A stretch of 64,000 bases of DNA from an uncultured Methanosarcinales archaeon. Lineage in GTDB: Archaea; Nanobdellota; Nanobdellia; Woesearchaeales; CAYPCY01. The stretch is taken from NCBI GenBank assembly GCA_964409385.1, contig CAYPCY010000001.1:41456-105455 (forward strand), given 5' to 3'. Position numbers and translations under genes: made by a program. A model generated the notes under the pieces. That model did no database searches. It saw only the letters and a list, made by a program, of their open reading frames with translations, and had not been told where the DNA came from. Shown here piece after piece: positions 8,993 through 55,299 of the stretch. Position 1 is the stretch's first letter; each line of letters opens with the position of its first letter.

Positions 8993-9064
8993 GACCCGGC
9001 CGGAGTCGAACCGGCGATCTTCGCCAAGTCAAGGCGACGTCATAGCCACTAGACCACGGGTCCT
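8993..9064 (-). tRNA. tRNA-Val (anticodon GAC), no encoded CCA
   Basis: Reverse complement GGACCCGTGGTCTAGTGGCTATGACGTCGCCTTGACTTGGCGAAGATCGCCGGTTCGACTCCGGCCGGGTCC folds as a cloverleaf: 7-bp acceptor, T-arm GCCGG/CCGGC with TTCGACT loop, anticodon stem TCGCC/GGCGA with loop TTGACTT. Position 37 is T, which is atypical. Confidence 0.7.
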
Positions 9065-10155
9065 TTAATATTAATTATTTGTTCCCACGAGAAGTTTTTA
9101 TTTCCGAAATGGCCATAAGTTGCTGTTTGCCTGAATATTGGTTGTTTCAGATTGAAGTATTTTATCATTTTTGCTGGTGTTAGTGGAAAGTTTTCTTTTA
9201 TTATTCTTATTAGTTCTTCTTCTGTTAATTCTGAAGTTCCAAAAGTATCTACAAATATACTTACTGGTTTTGAAACTCCTATTGCATAACTTAGTCCGAC
9301 TTCGCATTTCTTGCATAGGTTGTTTGCTACTAAGTTTTTTGCTATAAATCTTGTTGCGTAAGCTGCTGATCTGTCCACTTTTGATAAGTCTTTTCCTGAG
9401 AATGCTCCTCCTCCGTGTCTTCCCATTCCTCCATAAGTATCCACTATTATTTTTCTTCCTGTTAGTCCAGCATCTGCTTCTGGTCCTCCTTTAATGAAAC
9501 TTCCTGTTGGATTAATTAAAAATTTAGTATTCTCATCAAAGTATTCTTTACATACTGGTTTTATTACTTTCTCAATTATTTCTGTTTCTAATATTTTTTT
9601 ATTTACTTCTTCATGTTGGGTTGATACTACTATCGTATCTATTCTTTTTGGTTTAGTTCCTTCGTATTCTATTGTCACTTGTGATTTTCCATCTGGTTTT
9701 AAGAATGTTATTTCTTTATTCTTTCTTACTCTTGCTAATTGTTTTGTTAGTTTATGCGCTAAATCTATTGGTAGTGGCATTAATTCTTCTGTTTCGTCAC
9801 ATGCAAAGCCAAACATCATTCCTTGATCTCCCGCTCCTTGTTCTTTATCTTCTGTTTCTGTTACTCCTTGTGATATTTCTTGACTTTGTTTTGTTATATT
9901 AGTTAATACTTTTGGAGTGTATTCATACCCTATTTCTTTTAGAACTTGCCTTACTATCAGTTCTGGTTCTATAATTGCTTTTGTTGTTAATTCTCCTGCA
10001 ATTACTACTAAATCATTTTTTACTAGTGTTTCTATTGCTACTCTTGAATTTTCATCTTGTCTTAAGCATTCATCAAGAATTGCGTCTGAAATTTGATCGC
10101 ATACCTTGTCTGGATGGCCTTCTGTTACACTCTCACTAGTAAATAATCTTTTCAT
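9049..10155 (-). CDS. metK: S-adenosylmethionine synthetase, bacterial/eukaryotic-type MAT
   Basis: [33 protein letters not shown] and [10 protein letters not shown] signatures. The last 5 codons overlap the 5' end of the tRNA-Val gene. Confidence 0.9.
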
Positions 10156-13964: not shown

Positions 13965-14261
13965 ATGTTTAAGAAAGGAGCTAGTATTTCATTCAATACA
14001 ATAACCCTTGCAATTGTTGGTATTATTGTCCTTTTAGTTATAATTACTGTCTTTACTGGTAAGAGTAATTTAATTTCTAAAGATTTGAGTGCTTGCGAAT
14101 CTAAAGGGGGAGTTTGTCAAGGTAGTTGTGCCGATTCTTTTCAAACAGCTACTGATTTTGTTTGTACGGAACAGGAGTTAACTTGTTGTATTAATGTTTA
14201 CGATAAGCCTGTGGAAGATGCTAATGTTGATGTGGTTGATTCTTGGAGTAGTTTAATATGA
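13965..14261 (+). CDS. Small pilin-like protein with a class III (type IV prepilin-like) signal peptide and a Cys-rich C-terminus
   Basis: MFKKGASISFNTITLAIVGIIVLLVIITVF is a KKGA/S-type prepilin signal. Six Cys in the C-terminal half. Overlaps the next gene by 4 nt. Confidence 0.45.
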   Translation: MFKKGASISFNTITLAIVGIIVLLVIITVFTGKSNLISKDLSACESKGGVCQGSCADSFQTATDFVCTEQELTCCINVYDKPVEDANVDVVDSWSSLI

Positions 14262-16018
14262 GAAGAATAAACTTAATTTTAATGTTTGTATTGTTCCTTT
14301 CTAGTTTAGTTTCTGCTCAAGATTATGTTTATCTTTCTCTGAATGGAAATAGTATTTCTGGACAAAATAGTTTAGATTTGGAAGTTGGATCTTCTTATAA
14401 TTTCGAAGCTTCTGGAAGTTCTAATATTGCTAAAGTAAAAATGTACATTTCAGGAACTAATTTGCAGGAAGAAGGATTAACTGCAGATTTTGTTTTTTCT
14501 CCTGAAAGTCCTAACCAGCACGATTTAGTTATTATTGGTTATGACTCTGATGATTATGCCGTTGCTTCTTCAACTTTAACCTTAGTAGTTGGTGGTTGTC
14601 AGGAAGAGTGGGAGTGTTTTGAATGGAGTAGTTGTATTAGTAATTCTCAAACTAGAACTTGTGTTGATAATAATTTTTGTGGAACTAATTATGATGAACC
14701 AGTTCAGGAACAATATTGTGAACCAGACATTCCTGGTTGTACTGATTACTATTCTAATAATTATGATGATTCTGCTACTATTAATGATGGTAGTTGTGAG
14801 TATGATATTTATGGTTGTATGGATATTGAAGCTTTGAATTATGATCCTAATGTTAATATTAATGATTCTAGCTGTGAGTATGAAGAAGAACTTGCTGATG
14901 ACGAATGCAGTTCAGAATTTGATGTTTCTATCTCTGGAGATCCTTGGGTTTACAAATGTTTTTCTTCAAGTACTGCTCAAGGTTGTAAGGATGGTGTTGT
15001 TGGTAATGTTTTTAATATTCCTTCAAATCATGCATTACTTTCTAGATGTCAAGAACAAAATATTGATTTTGAAGGGTATGTTATTCCTGACACATGTTTG
15101 GGACAGAGTGATAGTTTTAATTACTTGAAAGACTGTACCAATCCAAGACTTAATGCTATTAGATTAATGATTATTGAAGAAGCAGAAAAAGAAAATATTG
15201 ATCCTTTATTTGCCCAGGCTGTTGCTTGTGTTGAAACTAAAATATCACATTTACAATCAAATGGTGAAATTCAAGCTAGTGGAACTGGCTCATTAGGTAT
15301 TTTTCAAGTGACAGAAACAACTGCAAGATCTATAGAAAATGATTGTTATAATGAGATTCCTAACTTTGATATTTATGATGAATATGACAATATTGTTTGT
15401 GGTTTGAAAATTATGAATGGAAAAGATGGTTATTTTGATGATGCTAGTGAATATTTGCAAAAAGTTCCTAATAATTGTCCTGAAAGCGAATATCCTGAGT
15501 ATTATGAATTATACTCTACTTATTCAACTAATAAGTGGAATAGGATTGCTAGAGCTTATAATTCCATGTCCTGTAGAACTGGGTCTGGAGCAGATATTTG
15601 TTATGTTGAGAAGGTATTGTATGCTATGAATATTCTTGAAGATTCTTCTTCTGATCTTTCTAAATGTTCGGGCATTATCGATTGTATTGGTAAAGAGGAT
15701 GTTATGAAATTTACATTCAAGGATGATGGTTTTTTTGGTATTGGAAGTAGAGAGTTTGATGTTTTTGCCGGGGTTGTTGATTCTTTCTCAGTATTATCTG
15801 ATGATGATTTCGAGGGTTTAGATGATAATGATATTATTGTTTTGTACAGTTCTGAAGAAAATCGTGTTGCTTTTATTCCTAGTGATAATGAGGGCGAGGA
15901 GGAGTTACTTACTGCTTCTTTAAACAGTTTGTCTAGCCAGTTTTCTTATGATCCTTATGGTGCAATGTATAAGTTCTTGGGAGAAGTAGAGTATACTACT
16001 GATACTTTTATTGGTTGA
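14258..16018 (+). CDS. Secreted Cys-rich protein with GC(T/M)D..NYD..DDGSCEY repeats and a lytic transglycosylase (SLT)-like domain
   Basis: Signal peptide MRRINLILMFVLFLSSLVSA. Repeats CTDYYSNNYDDSATINDGSCEY and GCMDIEALNYDPNVNINDSSCEY. SLT-like core AQAVACVETKISH...ASGTGSLGIFQVTETTA resembles the transglycosylase block ES...GA.GLMQ..P.TA. Confidence 0.5.
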   Translation: MRRINLILMFVLFLSSLVSAQDYVYLSLNGNSISGQNSLDLEVGSSYNFEASGSSNIAKVKMYISGTNLQEEGLTADFVFSPESPNQHDLVIIGYDSDDYAVASSTLTLVVGGCQEEWECFEWSSCISNSQTRTCVDNNFCGTNYDEPVQEQYCEPDIPGCTDYYSNNYDDSATINDGSCEYDIYGCMDIEALNYDPNVNINDSSCEYEEELADDECSSEFDVSISGDPWVYKCFSSSTAQGCKDGVVGNVFNIPSNHALLSRCQEQNIDFEGYVIPDTCLGQSDSFNYLKDCTNPRLNAIRLMIIEEAEKENIDPLFAQAVACVETKISHLQSNGEIQASGTGSLGIFQVTETTARSIENDCYNEIPNFDIYDEYDNIVCGLKIMNGKDGYFDDASEYLQKVPNNCPESEYPEYYELYSTYSTNKWNRIARAYNSMSCRTGSGADICYVEKVLYAMNILEDSSSDLSKCSGIIDCIGKEDVMKFTFKDDGFFGIGSREFDVFAGVVDSFSVLSDDDFEGLDDNDIIVLYSSEENRVAFIPSDNEGEEELLTASLNSLSSQFSYDPYGAMYKFLGEVEYTTDTFIG

Positions 16019-17762: not shown

Positions 17763-17794
17763 GTTAGTAGATTTTATTCTTGGAGAGGAATATA

Positions 17795-19153
17795 ATGAGT
17801 ATTAAAAATTTTATTGGAAATTCAGTTGATAAAATTAAAAACTATAGAAGTAGAACTAAGATTAAAATTGATAAACATTTAGAACCTGCTTTATTCTGGT
17901 TAGGAGCCAATGCAGGAATTCTATATGGTGGAGATAAAACTTTAGACTTTGTTTCTCAAAATATTGATTCTAACGAAGGACTTGCTATGCTTGGAACTTA
18001 TTCAGGGATCGGATTAGGTTTGGGATTAGCTAATAAGAAAGTTATTAATCCTCTTGCTAAAAAAATTAAAAAAATTCATAATTCAAGATTTAATTCTTGG
18101 AAGGAAGATAATGGTTGGAGTTGGGTAAAAACAGCTTCAGAATTTGGTGCTTTAGCAATCTTATATTCTACTTTAAATTTTAATTCTAGTATTGATAATT
18201 TTAAGAATGATGCTGATAGGATTGTTAATGCATTTTCTAGAAGCAATAAAACTATTGAGAGAATAATTAATGAACCTAACAGATTATTTAATTTTAGTGA
18301 TATAGATTGTGACATTCCTAGAACTTTAACTAAGGAGATTAAAGAAACTAACAAATGGAGTGATAAAGGAAGATTTTTAAGACAATTTAGATGGGATTGT
18401 ACTGTTTCTGAAATTGAAAAGAAATATAATATTCCAGATGGTTTATTAAGTGGTCTTGGTATGCAAGAGGGAGCGGGAGATCCTTTAAGTTTAAATTCTG
18501 GTAATGATGGTGGAGCAGGAAACTGGATGTTTCAACCAGGAACTGCTAAACAGTATGGTTTGAAGATTCATGGTACTTCTAAAAGGACTGGAAGGGATAG
18601 AAATCATGGCTGGAAGCTCTTAAAATTAGTTGAGAATAAGAATTGGAGTTATTCTACTCTTGCCAATATTGATGAAAGATTTAGTATTCCTAAGAGTGCC
18701 AATGCAGCAGGTCGTTATTTAAAGGATTTGCATAATAGATATGGTGATTGGGATAAAGTAATTTCTGCTTATAATCTTGGAAGACCTTGGAAGAATCCTG
18801 AAAGAACCACTCATGTTAAATGCACTAGAAAATATCAAAAGCAGTATCTTGAGAATAAGCTTGAAATGGGAAAACTAATTGATATTGATGTTTTAGAAAG
18901 TCTTAATGATCTAGGAGTTAATTTTGATTATATCCGAAAGAATTCTCAGGGAAAAGATGTCTTTAAATGGCATGTTGGCGCTGGAGAGAATCCTCAATCT
19001 ATTGCTAAACAGTTTAATGAGTGGGATATGAAAAAAGGGGATAAGTATAAAGAGCTTGATTCTACTTCGATTAAAAAGGCAGATGGTAGTTCTGTAGGTA
19101 ATTTAATATTTTCTAATAAACCTGTTTATGTTACTGCAAATGTTAAAGGTTAA
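17795..19153 (+). CDS. Lytic transglycosylase (SLT)-like domain protein (the track ORF starts at TTG 17780)
   Basis: LLSGLGMQEGAGDPLSLNSGNDGGAGNWMFQPGTAKQYGL resembles the SLT core QES.F.P.A.S..GA.GLMQ.MP.TA..YG. An N-terminal hydrophobic segment is present. Confidence 0.5.
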   Translation: MSIKNFIGNSVDKIKNYRSRTKIKIDKHLEPALFWLGANAGILYGGDKTLDFVSQNIDSNEGLAMLGTYSGIGLGLGLANKKVINPLAKKIKKIHNSRFNSWKEDNGWSWVKTASEFGALAILYSTLNFNSSIDNFKNDADRIVNAFSRSNKTIERIINEPNRLFNFSDIDCDIPRTLTKEIKETNKWSDKGRFLRQFRWDCTVSEIEKKYNIPDGLLSGLGMQEGAGDPLSLNSGNDGGAGNWMFQPGTAKQYGLKIHGTSKRTGRDRNHGWKLLKLVENKNWSYSTLANIDERFSIPKSANAAGRYLKDLHNRYGDWDKVISAYNLGRPWKNPERTTHVKCTRKYQKQYLENKLEMGKLIDIDVLESLNDLGVNFDYIRKNSQGKDVFKWHVGAGENPQSIAKQFNEWDMKKGDKYKELDSTSIKKADGSSVGNLIFSNKPVYVTANVKG

Positions 19154-23148: not shown

Positions 23149-23598
23149 CTATTTTATTGCTTCAAAATCTGTCAAAAATTCTTCTTTTTTTAATTCTTCA
23201 AGAACAAAATATTCTTCTTTTGCTGTTATTTGGTATTGGAGCATTGAATCACTAAATTCTTGAAATTCTTTCATATTCTTAAATATACATTCAACTAAAA
23301 AATCATATTGATTATTTACTTTAAATATGCTATTTGTTGAATAACTAGTTAGTAGAAAGTTCAGGAGTTTTTCTTTTTCTCCATTTTCTATCGCTAATAA
23401 GAAATTAACTCTTAAATCATAGCCTAACCCCCTAAAATTTAGTAATGCTGTGTGTTTTGTTATTATATTTCCTTCATATTGTTTTAACCTGTCAAATATT
23501 GTGCTTACTGGAATTCCTGTTTTTCTACTTATTTTTGTTAATGGTTGTCTTGCATTCTTTCTAAATTGTGTTATTAACCTAATTTCTTTTTCATTCAT
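23149..23598 (-). CDS. Lrp/AsnC-family transcriptional regulator
   Basis: N-terminal HTH (ISRKTGIPVSTIFDRLK) plus a C-terminal RAM-like domain. 149 aa. Confidence 0.75.
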   Translation of the reverse strand: MNEKEIRLITQFRKNARQPLTKISRKTGIPVSTIFDRLKQYEGNIITKHTALLNFRGLGYDLRVNFLLAIENGEKEKLLNFLLTSYSTNSIFKVNNQYDFLVECIFKNMKEFQEFSDSMLQYQITAKEEYFVLEELKKEEFLTDFEAIK

Positions 23599-23687: not shown

Positions 23688-23704
23688 TTCAGAAAATTTC
23701 TGAA
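23688..23704. promoter_or_regulatory. Perfect palindrome TTCAGAAA-A-TTTCTGAA between the Lrp regulator gene and the divergent 23778 operon; candidate operator
   Basis: 8-bp inverted arms with a 1-nt spacer. Flanked by a direct repeat GTTTTAGAAT x2. Confidence 0.3.
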
Positions 23705-23777
23705 CCTGAACTTTTCAGTTAATTTTTTAAATTAATTCCTGAAACATTTTTAAACCTAATTCTCCTTTAGTAACATT

Positions 23778-25283
23778 ATGCACGGTATTGAAGAAGGGAT
23801 TCTTCAATTATTCAAGGAAAATCCTGAAAGAGAATTCAAAACTACTGAGATTGTTGAGAAAGTTTGCTCTCAAAATTTTTCTCAAGATAAACTCTTAAAG
23901 GCGCAACTTCACAGAAAAGCATTATATTATTTGAATAAACTTGTAGATTCAGAAATATTAAAAGTTTCTAAAGTGATTGGGAAAGGAGAAAAATGTTTTT
24001 CATTAACAATTCAACATGGAGAAATACTTCTTAAAGGGAAAAAAACAATAATAATTTCTAATACTGGAGCTCCTTCAACCCCAATTGAAGGTTTTGAAGA
24101 AAGTAAATTAATCTTAAAATATGAAATTCCAACTTGGATTACAAAATTAAATTCTGTATTAATAAACGCTTCAGGACTGAAAATAAAAACATTTTTTACA
24201 TTATTAAAAGAGTCTGTAATTTCAGTTAATGATTCTGTAGGTATAATTAATCTAGAGAATTTAATGATTGAACACTCTAAAGATTTACTTGACAAACTTA
24301 TTGAATTATCTTTGGATTATTCCAAAAAAATTAGTGTTTCAATCAATATTTCAAAACTTCATAAGATTAAAGAATTTTTGAAATTATACGTTAATTCATA
24401 CAATAATAATTTATTACTTGTTTTTGAAGGTTCTCCTTCAGAATTACATTCTCAATCAAGAGTCTTTCTTGAAATTATTGATTTGTTCAAGGAAAAAAAG
24501 ATAAAGTTAAACATTAAAAATTCTGATATTTCCAAAGCTCCATATATTATTGGAAAGATAGGCTCATATACTTTCAATGATAAAGATTGGAATGTTTTTT
24601 TAGAGAAAGATTCTGAATTACCACTAATTTCACTGTCTCAATCTTCAATAATTGTGGATGTAAACAAATTTTTCAAAGAAAAAAACGTTTCTGATTTTAG
24701 AGAATCTCTTCTTAAAATTGCTAATTCTTTACTTTTAGGAAATATTATTCAAAGAAAAAGATCTGACGAGTTTTTTCAACAATTTGATTCTTTCAATAAG
24801 AATAAAAAAAACAGATTATTTTCTTATTCTTCAAATTATATTAGATTCTGGAATTATGATTGGGAGAAGAATTATGATTTTGTTACTTTACTTAATAGTT
24901 GTATTCCTCAAGTTAAAGAATTCTGTTCTAATGAAGAAACAATTTACAAGTCTTGTGGAATGCCAATAAGATTCAGAATTTCATTTTCTTCAGTAAGTAA
25001 AAGGTTTGATGATAATTTAAGCCATAGAGATTACTCAAAGGTTGAAATTAAAAGTATTAAGGATATTGAATCTGTAAAAATTAAAAAATTTCTTAGGACT
25101 AGAGAAGAATTATTAGATTATTTTGATGGTGGTGACAGGGTTAGATTTTTTAGAACTGGAGATTTTGAAAATAAGGATGTTCTTCAAGAAATTATCTTAA
25201 TAATGAATTCTTACAGACTTCCTTATTTTTGTTTTGATTTTACTAGAATGAGAGGTAATACTAAATTAACACATTATTTTTAG
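23778..25283 (+). CDS. Hypothetical protein (501 aa), co-transcribed with the thyA-fold paralog
   Basis: ORF only. Its stop is 1 nt before the next start. Confidence 0.3.
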   Translation: MHGIEEGILQLFKENPEREFKTTEIVEKVCSQNFSQDKLLKAQLHRKALYYLNKLVDSEILKVSKVIGKGEKCFSLTIQHGEILLKGKKTIIISNTGAPSTPIEGFEESKLILKYEIPTWITKLNSVLINASGLKIKTFFTLLKESVISVNDSVGIINLENLMIEHSKDLLDKLIELSLDYSKKISVSINISKLHKIKEFLKLYVNSYNNNLLLVFEGSPSELHSQSRVFLEIIDLFKEKKIKLNIKNSDISKAPYIIGKIGSYTFNDKDWNVFLEKDSELPLISLSQSSIIVDVNKFFKEKNVSDFRESLLKIANSLLLGNIIQRKRSDEFFQQFDSFNKNKKNRLFSYSSNYIRFWNYDWEKNYDFVTLLNSCIPQVKEFCSNEETIYKSCGMPIRFRISFSSVSKRFDDNLSHRDYSKVEIKSIKDIESVKIKKFLRTREELLDYFDGGDRVRFFRTGDFENKDVLQEIILIMNSYRLPYFCFDFTRMRGNTKLTHYF

Positions 25284-25284
25284 A

Positions 25285-25932
25285 ATGATAATAAATAAGA
25301 ACATAATGGAAGCATGGAGTACTGCTTTAGAACTAGTTTTGACCGAAGGAGTATCATTTAAGGATTCTGAAGGACGAATTTGTAAAGAAGCTATGAATTT
25401 AACAATCACAGTATTAAACCCTTCAAAGGACATTAGAAAACCAATTGAGGAACTTACTAAACTAAAGAAATGGACTTATCCTGATTTTGAAGAATTAAAG
25501 AATATAATGTTGCAAAAGTCTCAAAGTTCAAGTTATGAATACACTTACGGCCATAGAATTTTTAATTTTAATTTGAAAGATCAAATTCATGATTTTTTAA
25601 AACCACTCTTAACTTCAGACCCTACCAGCAGAAGGGGTTTTGTTAGTTTGTGGGATCCTGAAAAAGACAGTAATATAGAAAATAAGAATATTCCTGGACT
25701 TGTAGGTATTTACTTCAAAAAAAATAAGGGTTTAGACCTTACCGCTTTTATTAGAAGTAATGATATTTTTGTTGGATGGCCAGCAAATATTTACCAATTA
25801 TATTGTATTCAAGAGTATGTTGCTAAACTTTTAGGTTTTAAAATAGGTAAATTAACTACTTTTTCAACTAGTGCACATGTTTTTGAAGATAATATTAATG
25901 ATATAAGAAGGATTATCAACCGAAATCTTTAA
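25285..25932 (+). CDS. Thymidylate synthase (ThyA)-fold paralog lacking the catalytic cysteine
   Basis: TSRRGFVSLWDPEKD (cf. SRRIIVSAWNP.D), IRSNDIFVGWPANIYQLY (cf. QRSCDVFLGLPFNIASYAL) and TSAHVF.DN (cf. GDTHLYSNH). The position of the PPCH nucleophile reads NIPGLVG. Confidence 0.55.
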   Translation: MIINKNIMEAWSTALELVLTEGVSFKDSEGRICKEAMNLTITVLNPSKDIRKPIEELTKLKKWTYPDFEELKNIMLQKSQSSSYEYTYGHRIFNFNLKDQIHDFLKPLLTSDPTSRRGFVSLWDPEKDSNIENKNIPGLVGIYFKKNKGLDLTAFIRSNDIFVGWPANIYQLYCIQEYVAKLLGFKIGKLTTFSTSAHVFEDNINDIRRIINRNL

Positions 25933-25959: not shown

Positions 25960-26115
25960 ATGGAAGAATACATTGCTGAAGAAGCCAAGGAATATGAAGA
26001 AAGCACTGAAGAACTAATGGAAGATGATGAAATATCTCCAGAAGAAGAAGCTTTTATGAAAGGATATGACGAAGACGCTAAAAATAGTGAAGATGAGGAT
26101 GAAACAGAAGAGTAA
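25960..26115 (+). CDS. Possible small acidic protein (52 aa, MEEYIAEEAKEYEE...), not in the ORF track
   Basis: Intergenic ORF in the sense orientation to its neighbours. The Ser-rich antisense ORF 25929-26171 is probably spurious. Confidence 0.2.
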   Translation: MEEYIAEEAKEYEESTEELMEDDEISPEEEAFMKGYDEDAKNSEDEDETEE

Positions 26116-27506: not shown

Positions 27507-28175
27507 CTAATTTGAAGAAAGAATTTTAGCCATACTTGTTGCAAAATTTATGTCATTAACTCTTATTAAATTTTCATAATGTTGATTTTCTGTTAAGAAT
27601 TGTGAATTATATCTTTTTTCAGGCATCATTATTGGAATATTTTCTTTTAATTCTAACATTTTCTCTACCTGTTCTGGCGCATCATCAATTACAAAATTTA
27701 TTTTGGTATTATTTGAGAGGTATTCTTGGATTACGCTTTTTTTATCATTACTAAATATTATTTCATTAAATTTTAGTTTGTTAACATCCATCCACATTAT
27801 TGTTTTTTCCATTGCATTAGTATAGTAATAATCCTCATTATCTTCCTTTCCCCTTGTTGATAATATTATTACTTGGTCAGAATTTCGTTTTGCAACATCT
27901 AATAATTTTTTAGATCCTTTATATGGTTTTATTGTTTGAAAATAATGTTTATCTCCAACTCCTCTTAATAGATTTTTTGCTCCGAACTCATTTAGTTCTG
28001 GAATTTGATTTTTTCCAACTTCTAACAAGTCTGAAAATTTGTAAATATGATTATTTTCTTTTCTTACTTTTAAGTATTTATTATATTCTCCATTGAATTC
28101 TTCCTTTATGAATTTTTCAACTGTTTTTTCTAAAGGATATATTGTTTCGTCAATGTCTATTATTGATATTTTCAT
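27507..28175 (-). CDS. HAD-superfamily hydrolase, 5'(3')-deoxyribonucleotidase-like
   Basis: N-terminal motif I IIDIDETIY (DxDxT). Size and later motifs are HAD-like. Confidence 0.4.
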   Translation of the reverse strand: MKISIIDIDETIYPLEKTVEKFIKEEFNGEYNKYLKVRKENNHIYKFSDLLEVGKNQIPELNEFGAKNLLRGVGDKHYFQTIKPYKGSKKLLDVAKRNSDQVIILSTRGKEDNEDYYYTNAMEKTIMWMDVNKLKFNEIIFSNDKKSVIQEYLSNNTKINFVIDDAPEQVEKMLELKENIPIMMPEKRYNSQFLTENQHYENLIRVNDINFATSMAKILSSN

Positions 28176-49080: not shown

Positions 49081-49599
49081 ATGATAGCGTTAGCTTTGAA
49101 TAAAAAGGAAAAATTGCTAATAAGTTTCCTAAGACAAAATGCTAGGGAGACTTTAACTAATCTTAGCAAGAAAACTTCAATTCCAATAAGTACAATATAT
49201 GATAGTCTAAAAGAAAATAATTACATTACTAGAAATACTTGTTTATTAGATTTTGAAAAGTTAGGATTTCATACTCGTGTTAATATTTTCTTAAAATCAT
49301 CTGCGAAAAATAGAAAAGAGTTGGAAAACTACTTGGTAGGTCATCAAAATGTTAATTCTGTCTTTAGAATAAATAATAATTTTGACTTTTTGATAGAAGG
49401 AATTTTCAAGCAAGTAAAGGATGTTCAAGAAGTTATAGAATTACTTGAAAAAAACTTTGGAGATTTAAAAAAAGATATTTTTTACATTACTGAAGAGTTG
49501 AAGAAGGAAGAATTTCTCAGTAGTCCTGACCTGGTACAAACCCAAAAAACTTCCAAGATGACCGGAAATCCTCCGGCAAATTCTGGGTATGTCTTTTAA
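49081..49599 (+). CDS. Lrp/AsnC-family transcriptional regulator, paralogous to 23149-23598
   Basis: LISFLRQNARETLTNLSKKTSIPISTIYDSLK is an HTH. FRINNNFDFLIEGIFK resembles the 23149 protein's FKVNNQYDFLVECIFK. Confidence 0.6.
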   Translation: MIALALNKKEKLLISFLRQNARETLTNLSKKTSIPISTIYDSLKENNYITRNTCLLDFEKLGFHTRVNIFLKSSAKNRKELENYLVGHQNVNSVFRINNNFDFLIEGIFKQVKDVQEVIELLEKNFGDLKKDIFYITEELKKEEFLSSPDLVQTQKTSKMTGNPPANSGYVF

Positions 49600-52500
49600 A
49601 ATGAATAAACAAACTTTATTTATGGGGGAAGTAATAAATAAAACAAATATACTTTCGTTAAAAGTATTATCTTTCTTGCTCATATTCATCTTACTGCCTT
49701 TTGTTATTGCCTCTGAAACAACTTATGGTTCAGTCTATGAAATTGAAGAGATTGACAGAAAAGAATTATTTCAAGAAACAGTCAGAGAAAAACTTGAAAA
49801 ACAAGCATTAATCTATAAAGTAATTCCTACAGAAAAAGGAAATGAAATTTACAGAATTGATTCTGAAGGTAACATTATTGATGAAGATATTCCTCTTATT
49901 ATAAGTTCAATTAATTTATCTTCAAACTATTACGATGCAAAAATTTACGAGTCTCAAATTCAATCTCAAACTGTAAAACAAGGTAGTGGTGAAGGAGAAT
50001 CCTCCACTAGAGATATGGATTGTAATAATGCATATTATTTAGATTGGGAAGATGAAGGATCCGTCACCGGCTGGTATCCTCCAAACGAATACGAAAATCA
50101 TTGGTTTGAAATAGATCTTCCTAACGATGATGAATTTCTGATAGGTATTGACATGTCTAATAATGATGATTTTGATTTATATGTACATCCTGAATGTAAT
50201 GATGGATGGGTTTGCAGACCGTATGATGGAACAGGAGATACAGAAATTTGTTATGTCGATAATTTAGATGGAGATGTCTATATTAGAATTCATGCATATT
50301 ATTTAGGAGATGATGATCCTTATTATCTATATATTTATCCTCTTGAAGGAAATAATGATTATTGTGATATTTGGGATGATTGGGGAGTTCCTTGTGAAGA
50401 AGGAGAGTGGGATTGTGAAAGTGATTCTGATTGTGAGTCTGGTTTAGATTGTATGGGACCTTATGGAGATTACAATCCTAATTATTATGATGGATGTTGT
50501 GAACCTGGCGATGAATGGGACGCCAACAGTCATGAATGTATTTCAGGAGGTTGCGAAGAAGGTTGGTTAAACGAATATGATTGTGGTTCTGGCAACATGA
50601 GAAAAAGACTTTACCAAAATTCTGACTGTAGCACTGATTGGGAAAATTGGGAAGATTGTGACGATTATGATACAGGGTGGGATTACTTCTGTTCTGGAGA
50701 TTGTATACAAAGAGAAGAAACAGATTATTACTGTTCTGATTCTTCAAATTCTTGCCAAGGAAGTTATGACCAAGATACTCTTTCTTGTAACGGAGATTCT
50801 GATTACTGTGACGATAGGTATGATCATCAGGACGCTTGCGGAAAGTGTGGATATGAAGATTACGATTGTGATTGGAATAGTGAATGTTCAGGAAGTCTAG
50901 AATGTACAGGACCCATCTGGGGAGCACTAGATGGTTGTTGCAATCCAGGAGAACAATGGGACGGTAGCGGAAACTGCGGAGAATGCTTCGCAGACAGTGA
51001 CTGTGACGATCAAAATTATTATTCAGGTTGGAATTACGAATGTGGTAGTAATTATGTTAAAAAATATAGGACATTTTACGATTTTGGTTGTTCAGGAGGT
51101 AATGATTGTGTAGCTAATCAAATAAACGAGGAAGAAATTTATTATAATGGAAATTCTGATTATTGTTCTAAGAGTATAGAATTTGGTTGTGGAGGGTGCG
51201 ATTATGAACAATATGATTGTGATTGGAATAGTGAATGTTCAGGAAGCCTAGAATGTACAGGACCCATCTGGGGAGCACTAGATGGTTGTTGCAATCCAGG
51301 AGAACAATGGGACGGTAGCGGAAACTGCGGAGAATGCTTCGCAGACAGTGATTGTAACAGCCAAGATTACTATTCAGAATGGTATTACGAATGTGGTTAT
51401 GATTATGTCAAAAAGTATCGAATATTTTATGATTATTCTTGTTCAGGAGGTAATGATTGTATAGTTAATGAAATTGTTGAAGAAATAATATACAACAATG
51501 GAAATGAAGATTATTGTGATAAAAGTTTAGAGTATGGTTGTGGAGCTTGTGGATATGAACAATATGATTGTGATAGTAATAGTGAATGTTCAGGAAGCCT
51601 AGAATGTATGGGTTCAATCGGAGGCGCACTAGATGGTTGTTGCAATCCAAATGAAGAATGGGATGAAGTTAATTATGAGTGTATTTTCAACACTGTTTGT
51701 GGTGATGGAATTTGCAGTCCTGACGAGTATTGTGTTCAAGATTGTTTAGTTATTGACAGTTTTATTGACAATCCTGACTCTGTTGATTATGGAGAACCTG
51801 TTTCAGTAACTGTTAAGGTTGATAATATTGGAACTGTTACTTTATCTGAAAATATCGAAGCAGGAATTGTTCCTGAATCTTGGGCTGGTTTAATCTATCC
51901 TGATAGAAGTTCTACTCCTATTAGTGGTTGTTGTGACGCAAACGAATATTATGATTCTTTCCATCTGGAAATTAGTCCTGGACAGAGTGAATACGTTACT
52001 TTTAGTATTATAGCTCCTAATCCTGACTCTATTGATAATTGTGGTGATGGGGGTAGTGCTTGGGATTCTTCATTTAATTTAATTTCAGGATTGTATGTTG
52101 AGTGCTTTGAAGGATATACTGATTTTACAAGTACGGAGATTGATGTTTCTTATGAACCTCCTTGTAATAATAATGGTATTTGTGAAGAGTGGGAAAGTTT
52201 TGAAACTTGTTCTTCAGACTGTGTGTGTAATGGTAATGGAATTTGTGATGGTTTAGAAACTTTTGATACTTGCGCTAGTGAATGTTATTGTGATTTTGAT
52301 GGAACTTGCGACAGTTTTCAGGGAGAGAATGAGTATACTTGTGCCGCTGATTGTGTTCCTGATTGTGATATTCCTGACGGTAGTTCTTACGCTTGTGATT
52401 GTGATTCTAATATTGAATGTCCTTCGGGTTTGTTCTGTAATTTTGTTTCTGGTCCTGACGCTTGTGAGGAGATTAATTATGAGGATGAATGTTCTAACTA

Positions 52501-54739
52501 TAATGATTATTATTGTAATTCTGGAAATGTTTTCCAGTGTGTTTTTGAATCTACTAATTATGTTGAGGAACTAGTTGATGTTTGTACTAGTGGAGAGTTT
52601 TGTGATTCTCAAGTTGTTTCTGGCACTGGCGAGTGTAGTTTATTACCTGTTCATTTAGACTTGTGGATTGATTATGCACCTGTTGGTTTAACTGTTAATA
52701 AGCAAGTTGGTGATGTATTCACAGTTAATATTTATGCGGAACAGTCTACAACTGTTGATTTACAATATTCAGCAGTATTTTCTGGAGATTGTCCTCTAGG
52801 TAGTTATTCTTTAGACACTGGAGTTAATTCTTGCGAGTTAAGTGTTAATTCAGGATTTGGTAATTATATTATTAGTGTTAATGATAATGTAGTTACTTTG
52901 AATATTGTTTCAGAACCTTCATTGATTGTTGTTACTAATGTTGAGAAGTTGTTTGAAAGATTCCCTTATGAAGAAAGAGGGGTTGAAGCTACATTAAGTC
53001 AAACTTATGAGAATTCTGTTTCAAATTCGGTAGTTTATGATCTTAGCAAGTACATTTCTGGACATCCTTTCAATAGTTTTTCAAATTATAATGAGCATGT
53101 TGATAATCTTAACATGATGGATAATTCTTATACTGTTGAAGCTTCTGAATTCATTAAGGAAAAATGTAATGGTTGTTCTGATATTATGATTCTTGGTGAT
53201 GATTATGTTATTCCAGGATATAGAAGAATTATTGATGAGTACTTGACTGAATGGTTATGGTTTAACGGCGTTGCTGTAGAGTCTGTAATAACTACTGACA
53301 TTCCTTATATTGAAAAAGAAGTTTTATTGTTTTCTGAATATTTCGAAATTTTCAGGCAAGGATCTGGTTATCAGGGTAAGAATGTCTTAGTAATTCATCC
53401 TGCTAATGAAGATAGTTCCATGAGTGATAGTATTGAAGGTTTGAAGACTGCTTTTGTTGATCGTGGTTTTGATCCTGACTTCACAGATATTTCAGGAGAT
53501 ACTATTTATTGTGTTGATGAATCTTGGAGTAGTGATGCTTCTGGTAAGACTCTTATTCTTATTGGTTCTGAAGAGGATAATAATGCTTTTTCTTGCTTGC
53601 CTTTTATCCAGGCAGATTTAGATAATTATAGTGCTGCTCACTTACTTCCTAACGTTTGGGATACTGACGAATTTGCCTTAGTAATTAATACTGATGATCC
53701 TGCTGTTATTGAAAGTTTCGCATCTATGGTTAGAGAACAACAACTTGAGAATTTAGGTAGTGAGACTGCTTACTTCTTTAATATGGGAACTCAATATGTT
53801 GGTTATGGAGCTTTGGTTCTTGGTGCTGGGTTGATAATTGCTGGTACTGGTGGTGCTGCAGCTCCTGCAGGTTTGATTTTAATTGGGGGTATTGCTAATG
53901 TTGCTGCAGATTCAACTGATGTTGCTAATACTTGTTATGTTAATTATGATAGTATGGGCTGGTGTGGAGGCACTATTGCCTTAGCAGCAATTCCGGTCCT
54001 CCCTAGCAAGCCTGTTAAAGCTTTTATCAGGCAAATTAAGGATTTCAATTTTAATCAAATTGTTAATTTGCAATTAGTAGATGATGTAATGAAGAAATCC
54101 ATTAAATATTTTCAACCTGACGATCTTAAGAATGTAATTAAAAATGAGGAAACTCTTGAATTATTTTCTGACGGTAAACATTTCTTGATAGGGGGGGATG
54201 ATATTACTTCTATTAAAGTTGCTGAATTTAATAATATTAAAAAAGAACATTTAGCCGAAGGTTTTGTTAACTTGAAAAGGTTAGATTTAGATAATGCTTA
54301 TTTAGATCCTGATTGGTTAACCCAATTAAGAATGCAAGGAGGAAATCCTGGCTTTTGGGCTGAATTAAAACATGCTTCTGATCAGATAGATAATTTTGAT
54401 AAAGTTATTGTTGGGAAAAGACATGTAGGACTTAATATTGACATGGATGTATTATTGAAAAAAGAAGGCGTTCAAGAAGCTATTCTTGATGAAGTTAAGA
54501 ATTATAATAGTCTTCTAGAAATAGAAGAATTTAATTTAGGAGATGATTTATACAAACAATTAACTGCAAGAATTGGTTCTATAGGAACTACTGTTGAAGT
54601 TGCAGGAGATACTCTTACAATAACAAATGTCAGACTTATTGTTAGAGAAAATACACCTATAGGTCCAAATTTACAAACATTTTTAGATGAGAATCCTTCA
54701 ATGGAATTAATTAGATTTAGAGGAGTTGATTGGCCATGA
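49589..54739 (+). CDS. Giant secreted Cys-rich protein (1716 aa) with tandem ~117-aa Cys-rich modules, a Gly/Ala-rich hydrophobic segment and an unknown C-terminal domain
   Basis: Signal peptide LSFLLIFILLPFVIASE. Repeated modules CG.CGYE.YDCDWNSECSGSLECTGPIWGALDGCCNPGEQWDGSGNCGECFADSDC. More than 150 Cys in total. Confidence 0.6.
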   Translation: MSFKMNKQTLFMGEVINKTNILSLKVLSFLLIFILLPFVIASETTYGSVYEIEEIDRKELFQETVREKLEKQALIYKVIPTEKGNEIYRIDSEGNIIDEDIPLIISSINLSSNYYDAKIYESQIQSQTVKQGSGEGESSTRDMDCNNAYYLDWEDEGSVTGWYPPNEYENHWFEIDLPNDDEFLIGIDMSNNDDFDLYVHPECNDGWVCRPYDGTGDTEICYVDNLDGDVYIRIHAYYLGDDDPYYLYIYPLEGNNDYCDIWDDWGVPCEEGEWDCESDSDCESGLDCMGPYGDYNPNYYDGCCEPGDEWDANSHECISGGCEEGWLNEYDCGSGNMRKRLYQNSDCSTDWENWEDCDDYDTGWDYFCSGDCIQREETDYYCSDSSNSCQGSYDQDTLSCNGDSDYCDDRYDHQDACGKCGYEDYDCDWNSECSGSLECTGPIWGALDGCCNPGEQWDGSGNCGECFADSDCDDQNYYSGWNYECGSNYVKKYRTFYDFGCSGGNDCVANQINEEEIYYNGNSDYCSKSIEFGCGGCDYEQYDCDWNSECSGSLECTGPIWGALDGCCNPGEQWDGSGNCGECFADSDCNSQDYYSEWYYECGYDYVKKYRIFYDYSCSGGNDCIVNEIVEEIIYNNGNEDYCDKSLEYGCGACGYEQYDCDSNSECSGSLECMGSIGGALDGCCNPNEEWDEVNYECIFNTVCGDGICSPDEYCVQDCLVIDSFIDNPDSVDYGEPVSVTVKVDNIGTVTLSENIEAGIVPESWAGLIYPDRSSTPISGCCDANEYYDSFHLEISPGQSEYVTFSIIAPNPDSIDNCGDGGSAWDSSFNLISGLYVECFEGYTDFTSTEIDVSYEPPCNNNGICEEWESFETCSSDCVCNGNGICDGLETFDTCASECYCDFDGTCDSFQGENEYTCAADCVPDCDIPDGSSYACDCDSNIECPSGLFCNFVSGPDACEEINYEDECSNYNDYYCNSGNVFQCVFESTNYVEELVDVCTSGEFCDSQVVSGTGECSLLPVHLDLWIDYAPVGLTVNKQVGDVFTVNIYAEQSTTVDLQYSAVFSGDCPLGSYSLDTGVNSCELSVNSGFGNYIISVNDNVVTLNIVSEPSLIVVTNVEKLFERFPYEERGVEATLSQTYENSVSNSVVYDLSKYISGHPFNSFSNYNEHVDNLNMMDNSYTVEASEFIKEKCNGCSDIMILGDDYVIPGYRRIIDEYLTEWLWFNGVAVESVITTDIPYIEKEVLLFSEYFEIFRQGSGYQGKNVLVIHPANEDSSMSDSIEGLKTAFVDRGFDPDFTDISGDTIYCVDESWSSDASGKTLILIGSEEDNNAFSCLPFIQADLDNYSAAHLLPNVWDTDEFALVINTDDPAVIESFASMVREQQLENLGSETAYFFNMGTQYVGYGALVLGAGLIIAGTGGAAAPAGLILIGGIANVAADSTDVANTCYVNYDSMGWCGGTIALAAIPVLPSKPVKAFIRQIKDFNFNQIVNLQLVDDVMKKSIKYFQPDDLKNVIKNEETLELFSDGKHFLIGGDDITSIKVAEFNNIKKEHLAEGFVNLKRLDLDNAYLDPDWLTQLRMQGGNPGFWAELKHASDQIDNFDKVIVGKRHVGLNIDMDVLLKKEGVQEAILDEVKNYNSLLEIEEFNLGDDLYKQLTARIGSIGTTVEVAGDTLTITNVRLIVRENTPIGPNLQTFLDENPSMELIRFRGVDWP
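50837..51700 (+). repeat. 351-bp coding tandem repeat (2 near-identical copies plus a partial third) inside the giant protein gene
   Basis: Copies start at 50837, 51188 and 51539. The spurious ORFs 50931-51113 and 51282-51464 are displaced by exactly 351 nt and are near-identical. Confidence 0.8.
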
Positions 54740-55299
54740 GTAATTATAATAAATTTATTTTTAAGATTGAAAAAGAAGAAGATATTGAATTAATTAATAG
54801 TATAATAAATAAATACTGTTCTGAAAAAAATACTACTGAAGAATCTTTCAAACAATTAATTATTGGTGAAATGATTATTGATGTTTATTATACTGTAGAA
54901 AAAGATAGTTCTAAAACTAAATATGTTAGTTTTTCGGTTAATCAAATCAGGTTTAGTACTGAATCATTTTATAATTTAATTAAAGAGATAGGATCGGCAA
55001 TTTCAATGTCTGGAACGGGATATAACGAATACGAACCAGAAAAGGATCCTGAAGTTTTAGAAGAGGGTAAAAAAGGAATTTTTAAGAGATCTTATGATGT
55101 TGAAGATTTTTGGCCTTGGTCTCTTTTTTCTAAAGAATTAGTTGAAAAATACGGTAAAGATAAATTGTTTAGTGCTCCTGTTGAATTTGTTGAAGAATTT
55201 AATAATGGTTCTGTATTTTTAATGATTAATAAAAATTCAATGGGAACTAATAACTTCGAACAAAGAAAAAAATTAAGGGAATACTTAAGAAATGAATAA
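54730..55299 (+). CDS. Hypothetical 189-aa cytoplasmic protein overlapping both giant genes (possible accessory, immunity or chaperone)
   Basis: Its start overlaps the 49589 gene stop by 10 nt, and its stop overlaps the 55292 gene start by 8 nt. Confidence 0.35.
   Translation: MAMSNYNKFIFKIEKEEDIELINSIINKYCSEKNTTEESFKQLIIGEMIIDVYYTVEKDSSKTKYVSFSVNQIRFSTESFYNLIKEIGSAISMSGTGYNEYEPEKDPEVLEEGKKGIFKRSYDVEDFWPWSLFSKELVEKYGKDKLFSAPVEFVEEFNNGSVFLMINKNSMGTNNFEQRKKLREYLRNE

What the first reader, a model, noticed from the sequence alone, without database searches (positions are those of the whole stretch)
25285..25932. Thymidylate-synthase-fold paralog lacking the catalytic cysteine, co-transcribed with a 501-aa unknown protein
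The protein aligns along the whole ThyA fold (SRR..S.W.P.D; RS.D...G.P.NI..Y; H..F.DN), but the PPCH nucleophile position reads IPGLVG. It therefore cannot run the covalent ThyA mechanism. Either it is a non-catalytic or regulatory ThyA-fold protein, or it uses a different chemistry. It is 1 nt downstream of, and likely co-translated with, an uncharacterised 501-aa protein, and no thyA or thyX is visible in the window.
Basis: seen in the sequence. Interest (0 to 1): 0.55.

Follow-up and report, generated by a model that had tools for sequence, protein, structure and literature searches.

The report
Cysteine-less thymidylate-synthase fold paired with hidden RNR fold
This small archaeal gene encodes a thymidylate-synthase-shaped protein without the enzyme's reactive cysteine, and in almost every related species it sits directly behind an unannotated protein shaped like ribonucleotide reductase, so two look-alikes of the key DNA-precursor enzymes form an uncharacterised pair.

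Summary
ORF 25285-25932 has a ThyA fold (Pfam E=6e-17; AlphaFold pLDDT 95; TM about 0.8 to MilA and ThyA). Profile alignment puts Gly138 at E. coli Cys146.

The loss is clade-wide. In 186 DPANN sequences the position is G/S/A, and Cys in only 4. The nearest relatives are true archaeal-type ThyA (TIGR03283), and they keep Pro-Cys. The nucleotide-binding residues survive: R116/R117, R157, S158, D160, N168, H198 and Y88. A different Cys (C33, 83%) aligns with E. coli T26. By homology that is a dimer-interface residue, not the nucleophile site.

This partner lies directly upstream in 78 of 80 species, usually overlapping or within 20 nt. A divergent Lrp/AsnC-like regulator and a conserved TTCAG-N7-CTGAA operator often accompany it.

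My best reading (0.4) is that the ThyA-like protein is a nucleotide-binding subunit that cannot do thymidylate-synthase chemistry, working in complex with the RNR-fold protein, probably as a nucleotide sensor. A composite enzyme with new chemistry remains possible (0.3). No literature was found. Interest 0.7.

The parts
25285..25932 (+). ThyA-fold protein ('ThyL', 215 aa). It belongs to a DPANN-specific clade without the catalytic Cys. G138 (25696-25698) sits at the E. coli C146 position. C33 (25381-25383) sits at the E. coli T26 position.
23778..25283 (+). Partner protein 'p501' (501 aa). The stop codon lies 1 nt before the ThyL start. It matches no sequence family. The fold is a winged helix plus an RNR-type 10-stranded barrel.
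23778..24005 (+). N-terminal winged-helix domain of p501 (aa 1-76). The conserved recognition-helix residues are H45, R46, Y50 and N53, with K72 in the wing.
24540..24569 (+). Beta-hairpin of p501 (aa 255-264) that lies between barrel strands E and F. This is the topological position of the RNR finger loop. The tip is G259-[K/R]-[A/S/T]-G262, and no family member has Cys here.
   Evidence: DSSP; conservation. The assignment is an inference from topology, not from a superposition.
24954..24965 (+). Near-invariant C393-G394-x-P396 loop of p501 (C 98%, G 100%, P 99%). Its role is unknown.
23149..23598 (-). Divergently transcribed Lrp/AsnC-like regulator (149 aa). A homologue occupies this position in 54 of 84 related loci.
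23688..23704 (.). Palindromic operator TTCAGAAAATTTCTGAA (TTCAG-N7-CTGAA) in the divergent intergenic region. It occurs only once in the window.
23739..23754 (+). Second CTGAAACA element (23739-23746), immediately upstream of a TATA-like TTTTTAAA (23747-23754) about 27 nt before the p501 ATG.
   Evidence: Calling TTTTTAAA a TATA box is an inference.

Best explanation
ThyL is the small subunit of a conserved, DPANN-specific two-protein module.

It descends from archaeal-type ThyA. It keeps the pocket that holds a uracil-type nucleoside 5'-monophosphate: R116/R117, R157, S158, N168, D160, H198 and Y88. It has lost the thiol that starts thymidylate-synthase chemistry. It can therefore bind the nucleotide but cannot form the covalent C6 adduct.

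It is translated together with the upstream RNR-fold protein, and most likely bound to it. That partner appears to have lost the finger-loop radical cysteine and carries an N-terminal winged helix.

I propose that two retired DNA-precursor enzymes have been kept as ligand-binding modules. On this view the complex senses the pyrimidine or deoxynucleotide state and passes the signal on through the winged helix, a role like that of NrdR. The operon itself is controlled by the divergent Lrp/AsnC-like protein through the TTCAG-N7-CTGAA operator.

Shown: the folds, the loss of Cys138, the retained binding residues, the synteny and coupling, and the operator motif.

Inferred: the physical complex, the identity of the ligand, the absence of a radical Cys in p501, and the regulatory output.
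For: - Cys146-equivalent is G/S/A in 182 of 186 clade members, while nine TIGR03283-passing relatives all keep Pro-Cys.
- The phosphate-, base- and cofactor-contact residues are 91-100% conserved.
- About 15 members contain no cysteine at all, so no thiol nucleophile can be universal.
- p501 has no sequence-family match.
- No Cys occurs in the hairpin at the finger-loop position.
- The N-terminal winged helix has a conserved basic recognition helix.
- p501 lies immediately upstream on the same strand in 78 of 80 species-level genomes. In 62 of 82 loci the gap is within 20 nt, with modes at -4 and +1.
- The pairing extends to the most divergent members (P0216, P0268). It is absent next to two true TIGR03283 ThyAs.
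- The operator 8-mer is in 43 of 48 intergenic regions against 0 in shuffles, and it tracks the Lrp-like gene: 44/48 with it, 9/26 without.
Against: - Residues that are catalytic rather than merely binding in ThyA are still about 96-99% conserved (Y88=Y94, D160=D169, H198=H207). That fits a working enzyme at least as well as a sensor.
- p501 has near-invariant polar residues (N125, N151-D152, N248, R356, N359) and a C393-G394-x-P396 loop, which could form a catalytic site.
- No conserved DNA motif could be assigned to the p501 winged helix. The motif I found follows the Lrp-like gene instead.
- Complex formation is inferred only from gene order.
- The finger-loop assignment rests on the order of secondary-structure elements, not on a superposition.
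Confidence: 0.4

Rival explanations
1. The pair is an active heteromeric enzyme with non-canonical chemistry. ThyL still modifies C5 of a uracil nucleotide. Activation would come from outside its own Pro-Cys site. One route is a thiol supplied in trans by the p501 C393-G394-x-P396 loop. Another is a bound reduced cofactor, as in flavin-dependent ThyX or the flavin-binding ThyA-fold 5-hydroxy-dCMP synthases.
For: - Catalytic-type residues Y88, D160, H198 and N168 are retained.
- C393 is 98% conserved and is kept whatever ThyL has at positions 33 and 138.
- Some lineages with p501 still have C138, so the partnership preceded the loss of Cys.
- ThyA folds can bind flavin in place of folate (PDB 9iqu and 9iqc among the Foldseek hits; PMC13326640).
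- Both proteins are under strong purifying selection.
Against: - There is no evidence that the C393 loop is exposed or can reach the ThyL pocket.
- The D169N signature of the flavin-dependent hydroxylases is absent, since D160 is kept, and those enzymes keep their Cys.
- A winged helix is unusual on a metabolic enzyme.
- No cofactor-binding motif was identified.
Confidence: 0.3
2. ThyL is an autonomous thymidylate synthase whose nucleophile has moved. C33 (83% Cys), or Ser138 in a third of members, would replace C146.
For: At clade level the two cysteines swap. Archaeal-type ThyA has T33 with C138, the DPANN clade has C33 with G/S138, and a few intermediates carry both (P0216, P0250, P0266, P0349, P0297).
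Against: - C33 aligns with E. coli T26 (human T55), a dimer-interface residue near R175'/Y202' and not near C6 of dUMP. None of the 12 residues within 6 A of dUMP C5 lies in that strand.
- Position 33 is S, A, Y, L, T or F in about 17% of members, and about 15 sequences have no Cys at all.
- Gly is the commonest residue at position 138.
- T33C co-occurs with Y200F, which looks like a loss of hydroxyl groups rather than a gain of a nucleophile.
Confidence: 0.1
3. ThyL is the inactive protomer of a heterodimer with a Cys-containing ThyA-type protein encoded elsewhere in the genome. It would contribute its R116/R117 to that partner's active site.
For: - Tandem-fused archaeal-type ThyAs exist in which the first domain has Pro-Cys and the second has Pro-Ser or Pro-Arg (P0252, P0287, P0352).
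- R116 and R117, which in ThyA serve the partner's active site, are conserved.
Against: - No second ThyA-type gene occurs within 6 kb in any of about 84 loci, nor in the 64-kb window.
- The conserved partner by gene order is p501, not a ThyA.
Confidence: 0.07
4. ThyL is a decaying, functionless remnant of thyA.
For: The key catalytic residue is lost.
Against: - The ORF is intact in more than 180 sequences across several DPANN lineages at 40-55% identity.
- 15 columns are invariant, mean column identity is 55%, and synteny is conserved.
Confidence: 0.02

Closest known systems
Archaeal/methanogen-type thymidylate synthase (NCBIfam TIGR03283, the MJ0757 type)
   Same: It is the closest sequence family. 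It matches full length (aa 2-206) and has the same short architecture of about 200-220 aa, without the canonical C-terminal segment. It shares the RS(N/H)D, (A/G)WPAN, SAH and YTYG motifs, and an acidic or amide residue at the E. coli L143 position.
   Different: ThyL scores 121.5 bits against a cutoff of 174.55. It has G/S/A instead of Cys at 138, C instead of T/S at 33, F instead of Y at 200, and G instead of A at 164. The N-terminal Arg is shifted from position 29 to 31. ThyL has an obligate RNR-fold neighbour, which the two TIGR03283 members I examined lack.
MilA CMP 5-hydroxymethylase (PDB 5jnh, 5b6d) and canonical ThyA (for example B. subtilis 1bko, E. coli)
   Same: These are the best solved-structure matches (TMq 0.82-0.84; sequence E about 1e-9). 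The phosphate-binding Arg/Ser residues and the RSxD...N core are shared.
   Different: All of them use the Pro-Cys nucleophile, which ThyL lacks. ThyL keeps the uracil-type Asn (N168), not the cytosine-type Asp. It also lacks the folate-closing C-terminus.
Flavin-dependent ThyA-fold 5-hydroxy-dCMP synthases (phage HY126 AfhB, PDB 9iqu; RB69 gp48; PMC13326640)
   Same: They are a similar size (217 aa; TMq 0.81, TMt 0.80). They show that the ThyA fold can swap folate for another cofactor.
   Different: Those enzymes keep Cys146 and carry the D169N signature. ThyL has no Cys there and keeps Asp160.
Class III (anaerobic) ribonucleotide reductase NrdD, compared with the partner p501
   Different: About 10% identity and no profile similarity. 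p501 has no RVCGY-type C-terminal glycyl-radical domain, no Zn ribbon and no ATP cone. No Cys occurs in the hairpin at the finger-loop position. It has an N-terminal winged helix instead.
Catalytically inactive RNR large-subunit homologues of herpesviruses (for example EBV BORF2, PDB 7rw6) and the nucleotide-sensing repressor NrdR
   Different: They are unrelated in sequence and context. Neither is paired with a ThyA-fold protein, and NrdR uses an ATP cone rather than the barrel.

Membership tests
Thymidylate synthase ThyA (PF00303 / TIGR03284) | ThyA alpha/beta fold | tested here: met
   Pfam E=6e-17; AlphaFold2 pLDDT 95.3 and Foldseek TMq 0.7-0.84 to ThyA and MilA
Thymidylate synthase ThyA (PF00303 / TIGR03284) | Nucleophilic Cys in the Pro-Cys motif (E. 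coli C146) | tested here: not met
   G138 aligns with C146. Across the clade the position is G 111, S 60, A 10, C 4 of 186.
Thymidylate synthase ThyA (PF00303 / TIGR03284) | dUMP contacts: R126/R127, R166, S167, N177; cofactor Asp169; H207; Y94 | tested here: met
   R116/R117, R157, S158, N168, D160, H198 and Y88 are 91-100% conserved. R21 itself aligns with the variable S28, and a conserved R31 lies nearby.
Thymidylate synthase ThyA (PF00303 / TIGR03284) | Curated equivalog score | tested here: not met
   TIGR03284 scores 41.3 bits against a cutoff of 108.35
Thymidylate synthase ThyA (PF00303 / TIGR03284) | Converts dUMP to dTMP | not testable with these tools
   This needs an enzyme assay or complementation.
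Archaeal/methanogen-type ThyA (TIGR03283) | Score at or above the curated cutoff of 174.55 bits | tested here: not met
   121.5 bits. Nine Cys-containing relatives score 190-238 bits.
Archaeal/methanogen-type ThyA (TIGR03283) | Canonical Pro-Cys nucleophile, T/S at position 33, Tyr at position 200 | tested here: not met
   Residue table
Flavin-dependent 5-hydroxy-dCMP synthase (ThyA fold) | D169N signature with Cys146 retained (PMC13326640) | tested here: not met
   D160 is retained in 96% and the Cys is absent
Pyrimidine-nucleotide hydroxymethylases (T4 gp42, MilA) | Cys nucleophile; Asp at the N177 position for cytosine substrates; polar or acidic residue at the L143 position | tested here: not met
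   No Cys, and Asn168 is kept. Only the third feature is met (N/E/D at position 135), and TIGR03283 members share it.
Ribonucleotide reductase catalytic subunit (for partner p501) | 10-stranded alpha/beta barrel | tested here: met
Ribonucleotide reductase catalytic subunit (for partner p501) | Membership of a sequence family (Pfam or NCBIfam RNR models) | tested here: not met
   No hits; no PDB sequence hit with a profile; hhalign against E. coli NrdD gives probability 0.1%
Ribonucleotide reductase catalytic subunit (for partner p501) | Thiyl-radical Cys at the tip of the finger loop | tested here: inconclusive
   The hairpin at aa 255-264, between strands E and F, has the tip G-[K/R]-[A/S/T]-G and no Cys in 143 sequences. 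The loop assignment comes from topology only, and C393 lies elsewhere in the chain.
Ribonucleotide reductase catalytic subunit (for partner p501) | A radical source: a glycyl-radical domain with activase, a beta subunit, or adenosylcobalamin | tested here: inconclusive
   No RVxGY-type C-terminal motif is present, and no activase or beta subunit is a conserved neighbour. Cobalamin binding cannot be judged from sequence.

The most novel reading that the evidence does not exclude
The ThyA-fold and RNR-fold proteins form one heteromeric enzyme. It would make or remodel DNA precursors in folate-poor, host-dependent DPANN archaea without either canonical cysteine. The nucleophile might be donated in trans (p501 C393) into an open ThyL pocket, or activation might be cofactor-driven. 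This would be a third mechanistic solution for thymidylate-type chemistry, physically joined to an RNR-derived subunit.
Probability: 0.25. Interest if true: 0.9.

Novelty: new variant of a known kind. Interest (0 to 1): 0.7.

Why it matters
Ribonucleotide reductase and thymidylate synthase are the two enzymes that define DNA-precursor synthesis, and each depends on an essential cysteine.

Here a whole archaeal radiation (Woesearchaeota, Pacearchaeota and other Nanoarchaeota, plus Aenigmatarchaeota- and Nanohaloarchaeota-labelled MAGs) keeps a tightly coupled pair of look-alikes of these enzymes under strong selection. The thymidylate-synthase look-alike has clearly lost its cysteine, and the reductase look-alike apparently has too.

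Public annotation calls the first "thymidylate synthase" and the second "hypothetical". Metabolic reconstructions of these genome-reduced symbionts may therefore credit them with dTMP synthesis they cannot perform. They also miss an RNR-derived protein altogether.

If the pair is a sensor, it is a new kind of nucleotide-responsive regulator built from retired enzymes. If it is an enzyme, it uses chemistry not yet described for either fold.

Both options can be tested directly with two small recombinant proteins.

Tried and rejected
- Literature. Ten full-text searches covered MJ0757, DPANN with ThyA, ThyX or RNR, "RNR-like" and "TS-like", and dCMP hydroxylase. None found a description of this clade or of the pairing.
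- Defence system. No PADLOC hit for either protein. PHROGs gives only generic thymidylate-synthase families for ThyL. tblastn of p501 against phages finds nothing. The stable housekeeping neighbourhood and the vertical pattern also argue against a mobile defence island.
- 5-hydroxy-dCMP synthase. Rejected: D169N is absent and the Cys is absent.
- C33 as a relocated nucleophile. Judged unlikely from homology to T26/T55 at the dimer interface, but not excluded.
- C393 of p501 as the RNR finger-loop Cys. Judged unlikely. Only four short strands and about 108 residues follow it, too few for the second half-barrel, and the hairpin right after strand E fits the finger loop.
- C393 against ThyL Cys status. 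I looked for p501 lacking C393 paired with ThyL retaining C138. The only V393 case pairs with C33/G138, so the test was uninformative.
- Residue-level mapping of p501 onto NrdD by hhalign failed.
- Other conserved neighbours. Apart from the Lrp-like gene, the neighbours are variable housekeeping genes (ThrRS, GyrB, ArgRS, ABCE1). Family-4 UDG occurs in only 13 loci.
- Exceptions. L050 and L056 have ThyL but no p501 within 6 kb, even by tblastn. This is unexplained.

Full report
THE OBSERVATION

Window 25285-25932 (+) is an intact 215-aa ORF. Its ATG lies 1 nt after the TAG of the 501-aa ORF 23778-25283. The window has about 29% G+C and carries archaeal ribosomal-protein genes. The protein and its close relatives come from Woesearchaeota/Nanoarchaeota (DPANN) MAGs.

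The protein matches Pfam Thymidylat_synt at E=6e-17. It matches NCBIfam TIGR03283 (archaeal/methanogen-type ThyA) over its full length, but at 121.5 bits against a cutoff of 174.55. An AlphaFold2 model built on 70 homologues is confident (pLDDT 95.3, pTM 0.92). Its best solved-structure neighbours are MilA CMP hydroxymethylase (TMq 0.82-0.84), many ThyAs, and the 217-aa flavin-dependent dCMP hydroxylase AfhB.

THE MISSING CYSTEINE

Profile alignment to E. coli ThyA gives these equivalences:
- P137=P145, G138=C146, L139=H147
- R116/R117=R126/R127
- R157/S158/D160=R166/S167/D169
- N168=N177, H198=H207, F200=Y209, Y88=Y94

These come and from the global alignment with probability 99.2%. The E. 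coli sequence I used is identical to K-12 thyA.

The change is a property of a whole clade, not of this gene. In 186 distinct sequences, position 138 is G 111, S 60, A 10 and C 4, while the nucleotide-contact residues are 91-100% conserved.

An exhaustive HMM search of 1.84 billion representatives found 98 clusters at E<1e-30. It showed a sharp split:
- The DPANN clade (more than 150 bits) reads D..xRxC33xE / P[G/S/A]138 / GWPAN / SAHxF200.
- The next relatives (110-150 bits) read DERGxxT33 / [V/P]PC138 / AWPAN / SAHIY200.

Nine of those relatives pass the TIGR03283 cutoff at 190-238 bits. True archaeal-type ThyA therefore keeps the nucleophile, and the DPANN clade is a derived sister group that lost it.

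THE OTHER CYSTEINE

C33 is Cys in 83% of the clade and Ser in 10%. A few sequences carry both C33 and C138. That pattern could suggest that the nucleophile migrated.

However, C33 aligns with E. coli T26 of the DRTGTGT motif. The human equivalent, T55, lies at the dimer interface next to D173/R175/Y202 of the facing subunit (PMC9831607). No residue of that strand is among the 12 within 6 A of dUMP C5 (PMC13326640). About 15 clade members have no cysteine at all. I therefore regard relocation as unlikely.

THE PARTNER

Foldseek agrees independently. All 10 of its hits with E<=1e-3 are RNRs, mostly NrdD.

The order of secondary-structure elements gives five beta-alpha units (strands at 124-248), then a beta-hairpin at 257-264, then five further strands (283-487). 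The hairpin occupies the place of the RNR finger loop. It is among the most conserved segments (N248, P255, G259, G262, Y264 at 98-100%), but its tip is G-[K/R]-[A/S/T]-G and no member has a Cys there.

A near-invariant C393-G394-x-P396 motif lies in the loop before strand H. There is no RVCGY-type C-terminal glycyl-radical domain (compare E. coli NrdD).

By inference, then, the partner is an RNR-fold protein that also lacks its canonical catalytic cysteine.

THE LINKAGE

A scan of one genome per species returned 80 loci, all DPANN. The record titles say Woesearchaeota, Pacearchaeota, Nanoarchaeia, Nanohalarchaeota/Nanoanaerosalina and Aenigmatarchaeota. Many are titled "Methanosarcinales", which I take to be a mislabel.

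- In 78 of 80 loci a p501 homologue lies directly upstream on the same strand.
- In 62 of 82 loci the distance from stop to start is within 20 nt. The modes are -4 (an ATGA overlap) and +1.
- The pairing also holds for P0216, an intermediate with both cysteines, and for the highly divergent P0268.
- Two genuine TIGR03283 ThyAs have no such neighbour.

Clustering of all neighbours found one more recurrent gene. It is a divergently transcribed Lrp/AsnC-like protein of about 154 aa, present in 54 of 84 loci; in the window it is 23149-23598 (-). All other neighbours are variable housekeeping genes.

THE OPERATOR

The divergent intergenic region carries a conserved element, TTCAG-N7-CTGAA(ACA).
- CTGAAACA occurs in 43 of 48 such regions and in none of the shuffled controls.
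- It usually lies 45-60 nt before the p501 start, just upstream of a TATA-like box.
- In the window, the full palindrome occurs only at 23688-23704.
- The core CTGAAAC is present in 44 of 48 loci with the adjacent Lrp-like gene, in 9 of 26 without it, and in 4.9% of background 300-nt windows.

It is therefore most likely the operator of the Lrp-like protein.

CONTEXT IN THE WINDOW

None of the other ORFs I scanned, which include every ORF of 200-620 aa, hits ThyA, ThyX or any RNR family. The rest of the genome could not be reached with the tools.

INTERPRETATION

The data show a conserved, co-translated pair: a TS-fold protein that keeps its nucleotide pocket but not its nucleophile, and an RNR-fold protein with a nucleic-acid-binding-type domain and, apparently, no radical cysteine.

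The most economical reading (0.4) is that both are retired enzymes kept as ligand-binding modules of one complex, probably a nucleotide sensor with a DNA-binding output.

The main rival (0.3) is an active composite enzyme that uses another route to activate C5. That could be a thiol in trans from C393, or a cofactor. The ThyA fold is now known to accept flavin. Retention of Y88, D160 and H198 keeps this rival alive.

The other readings are less likely:
- an autonomous enzyme using C33 or S138 (0.1)
- the silent protomer of a heterodimer with another ThyA (0.07), for which the precedent is tandem fusions whose second domain lacks Cys
- a dead gene (0.02)

NOVELTY

Ten literature searches found nothing on this clade or on the pairing. 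Public annotations call ThyL "thymidylate synthase" and p501 "hypothetical protein".

I classify ThyL as a new variant of a known kind: an archaeal-type ThyA fold without its nucleophile. It sits in a previously unrecognised two-protein system. The mechanism is unresolved, and the decisive tests are listed separately.

Noticed in passing
window 25960-26115 (+): A 51-aa, very acidic ORF (51% D+E) lies just downstream of ThyL. It carries the motif EEAFMKGY. Homologues of about 55 aa with NPExLRDNDEIxDAEEAFMEGYE follow ThyL in at least 12 other loci. It may be a fourth member of the module or an unrelated small gene.
   Followed up: partly
loci L005, L015, L022, L027, L054, L057, L061, L073, L075, L077 (immediately downstream of ThyL): In other lineages the downstream position is taken by a different small ORF of 40-90 aa. 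It is predicted to be coiled-coil and carries the motif IYKEELKRKDxxIxxLExEN.
   Followed up: no
proteins P0252, P0287, P0352: These are tandem-duplicated archaeal-type ThyA fusions of about 790-840 aa. The first ThyA domain keeps Pro-Cys, while the second has Pro-Ser or Pro-Arg. They look like built-in pseudo-heterodimers with one Cys-less site.
   Followed up: partly
proteins P0270, P0273, P0279, P0282 and about 40 others: Many archaeal-type ThyA domains with Pro-Cys are fused to an N-terminal domain of about 170-230 aa and often to a C-terminal domain of about 90 aa, for 390-515 aa in total. From memory the N-terminal domain resembles MtrA-like corrinoid or pterin proteins. I did not test this.
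   Followed up: no
window 27507-28175 (-): A 222-aa ORF 1.6 kb downstream has a weak match to NT5C deoxy-pyrimidine 5'-nucleotidase (E=6.5e-5, 23.3 bits against a cutoff of 24.8). It is a possible nucleotide-salvage enzyme near the module, but it is not conserved in other loci.
   Followed up: no
window 14258-16018 (+) and 17780-19153 (+): Two large proteins carry SLT lytic-transglycosylase domains. This is unusual for an archaeon and may relate to attacking a bacterial host wall.
   Followed up: no
window 9049-10155 (-): A bacterial-type S-adenosylmethionine synthetase (MetK, three Pfam domains with E down to 8e-66) occurs in an archaeal genome.
   Followed up: no
window 49589-59734 (+): Two giant ORFs (1716 and 1480 aa) flank a 189-aa ORF. 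The 8-mer CTGAAACA is over-represented in the window (14 sites against 3.1 expected), and 8 of the 14 sites fall in this region. This probably reflects repeats in coding sequence rather than operators.
   Followed up: no
loci L050 and L056: These are the only two of 80 species loci with ThyL but no p501 homologue within 6 kb, even by tblastn. The L056 ThyL has Ser at positions 33 and 138 and contains no cysteine.
   Followed up: partly
loci L014, L017, L020, L022 and about 25 others: Many genome records that carry this DPANN-type module are titled "uncultured Methanosarcinales archaeon". Their gene content and ThyL/p501 sequences place them with Woesearchaeota/Nanoarchaeota, so the record taxonomy looks wrong.
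   Followed up: no
loci L005 8963-9562, L006 8843-9454 and 11 others: A family-4 uracil-DNA glycosylase gene lies within about 1 kb downstream of ThyL in 13 of 84 loci. This is suggestive for a uracil-related function, but it is not a conserved neighbour.
   Followed up: partly
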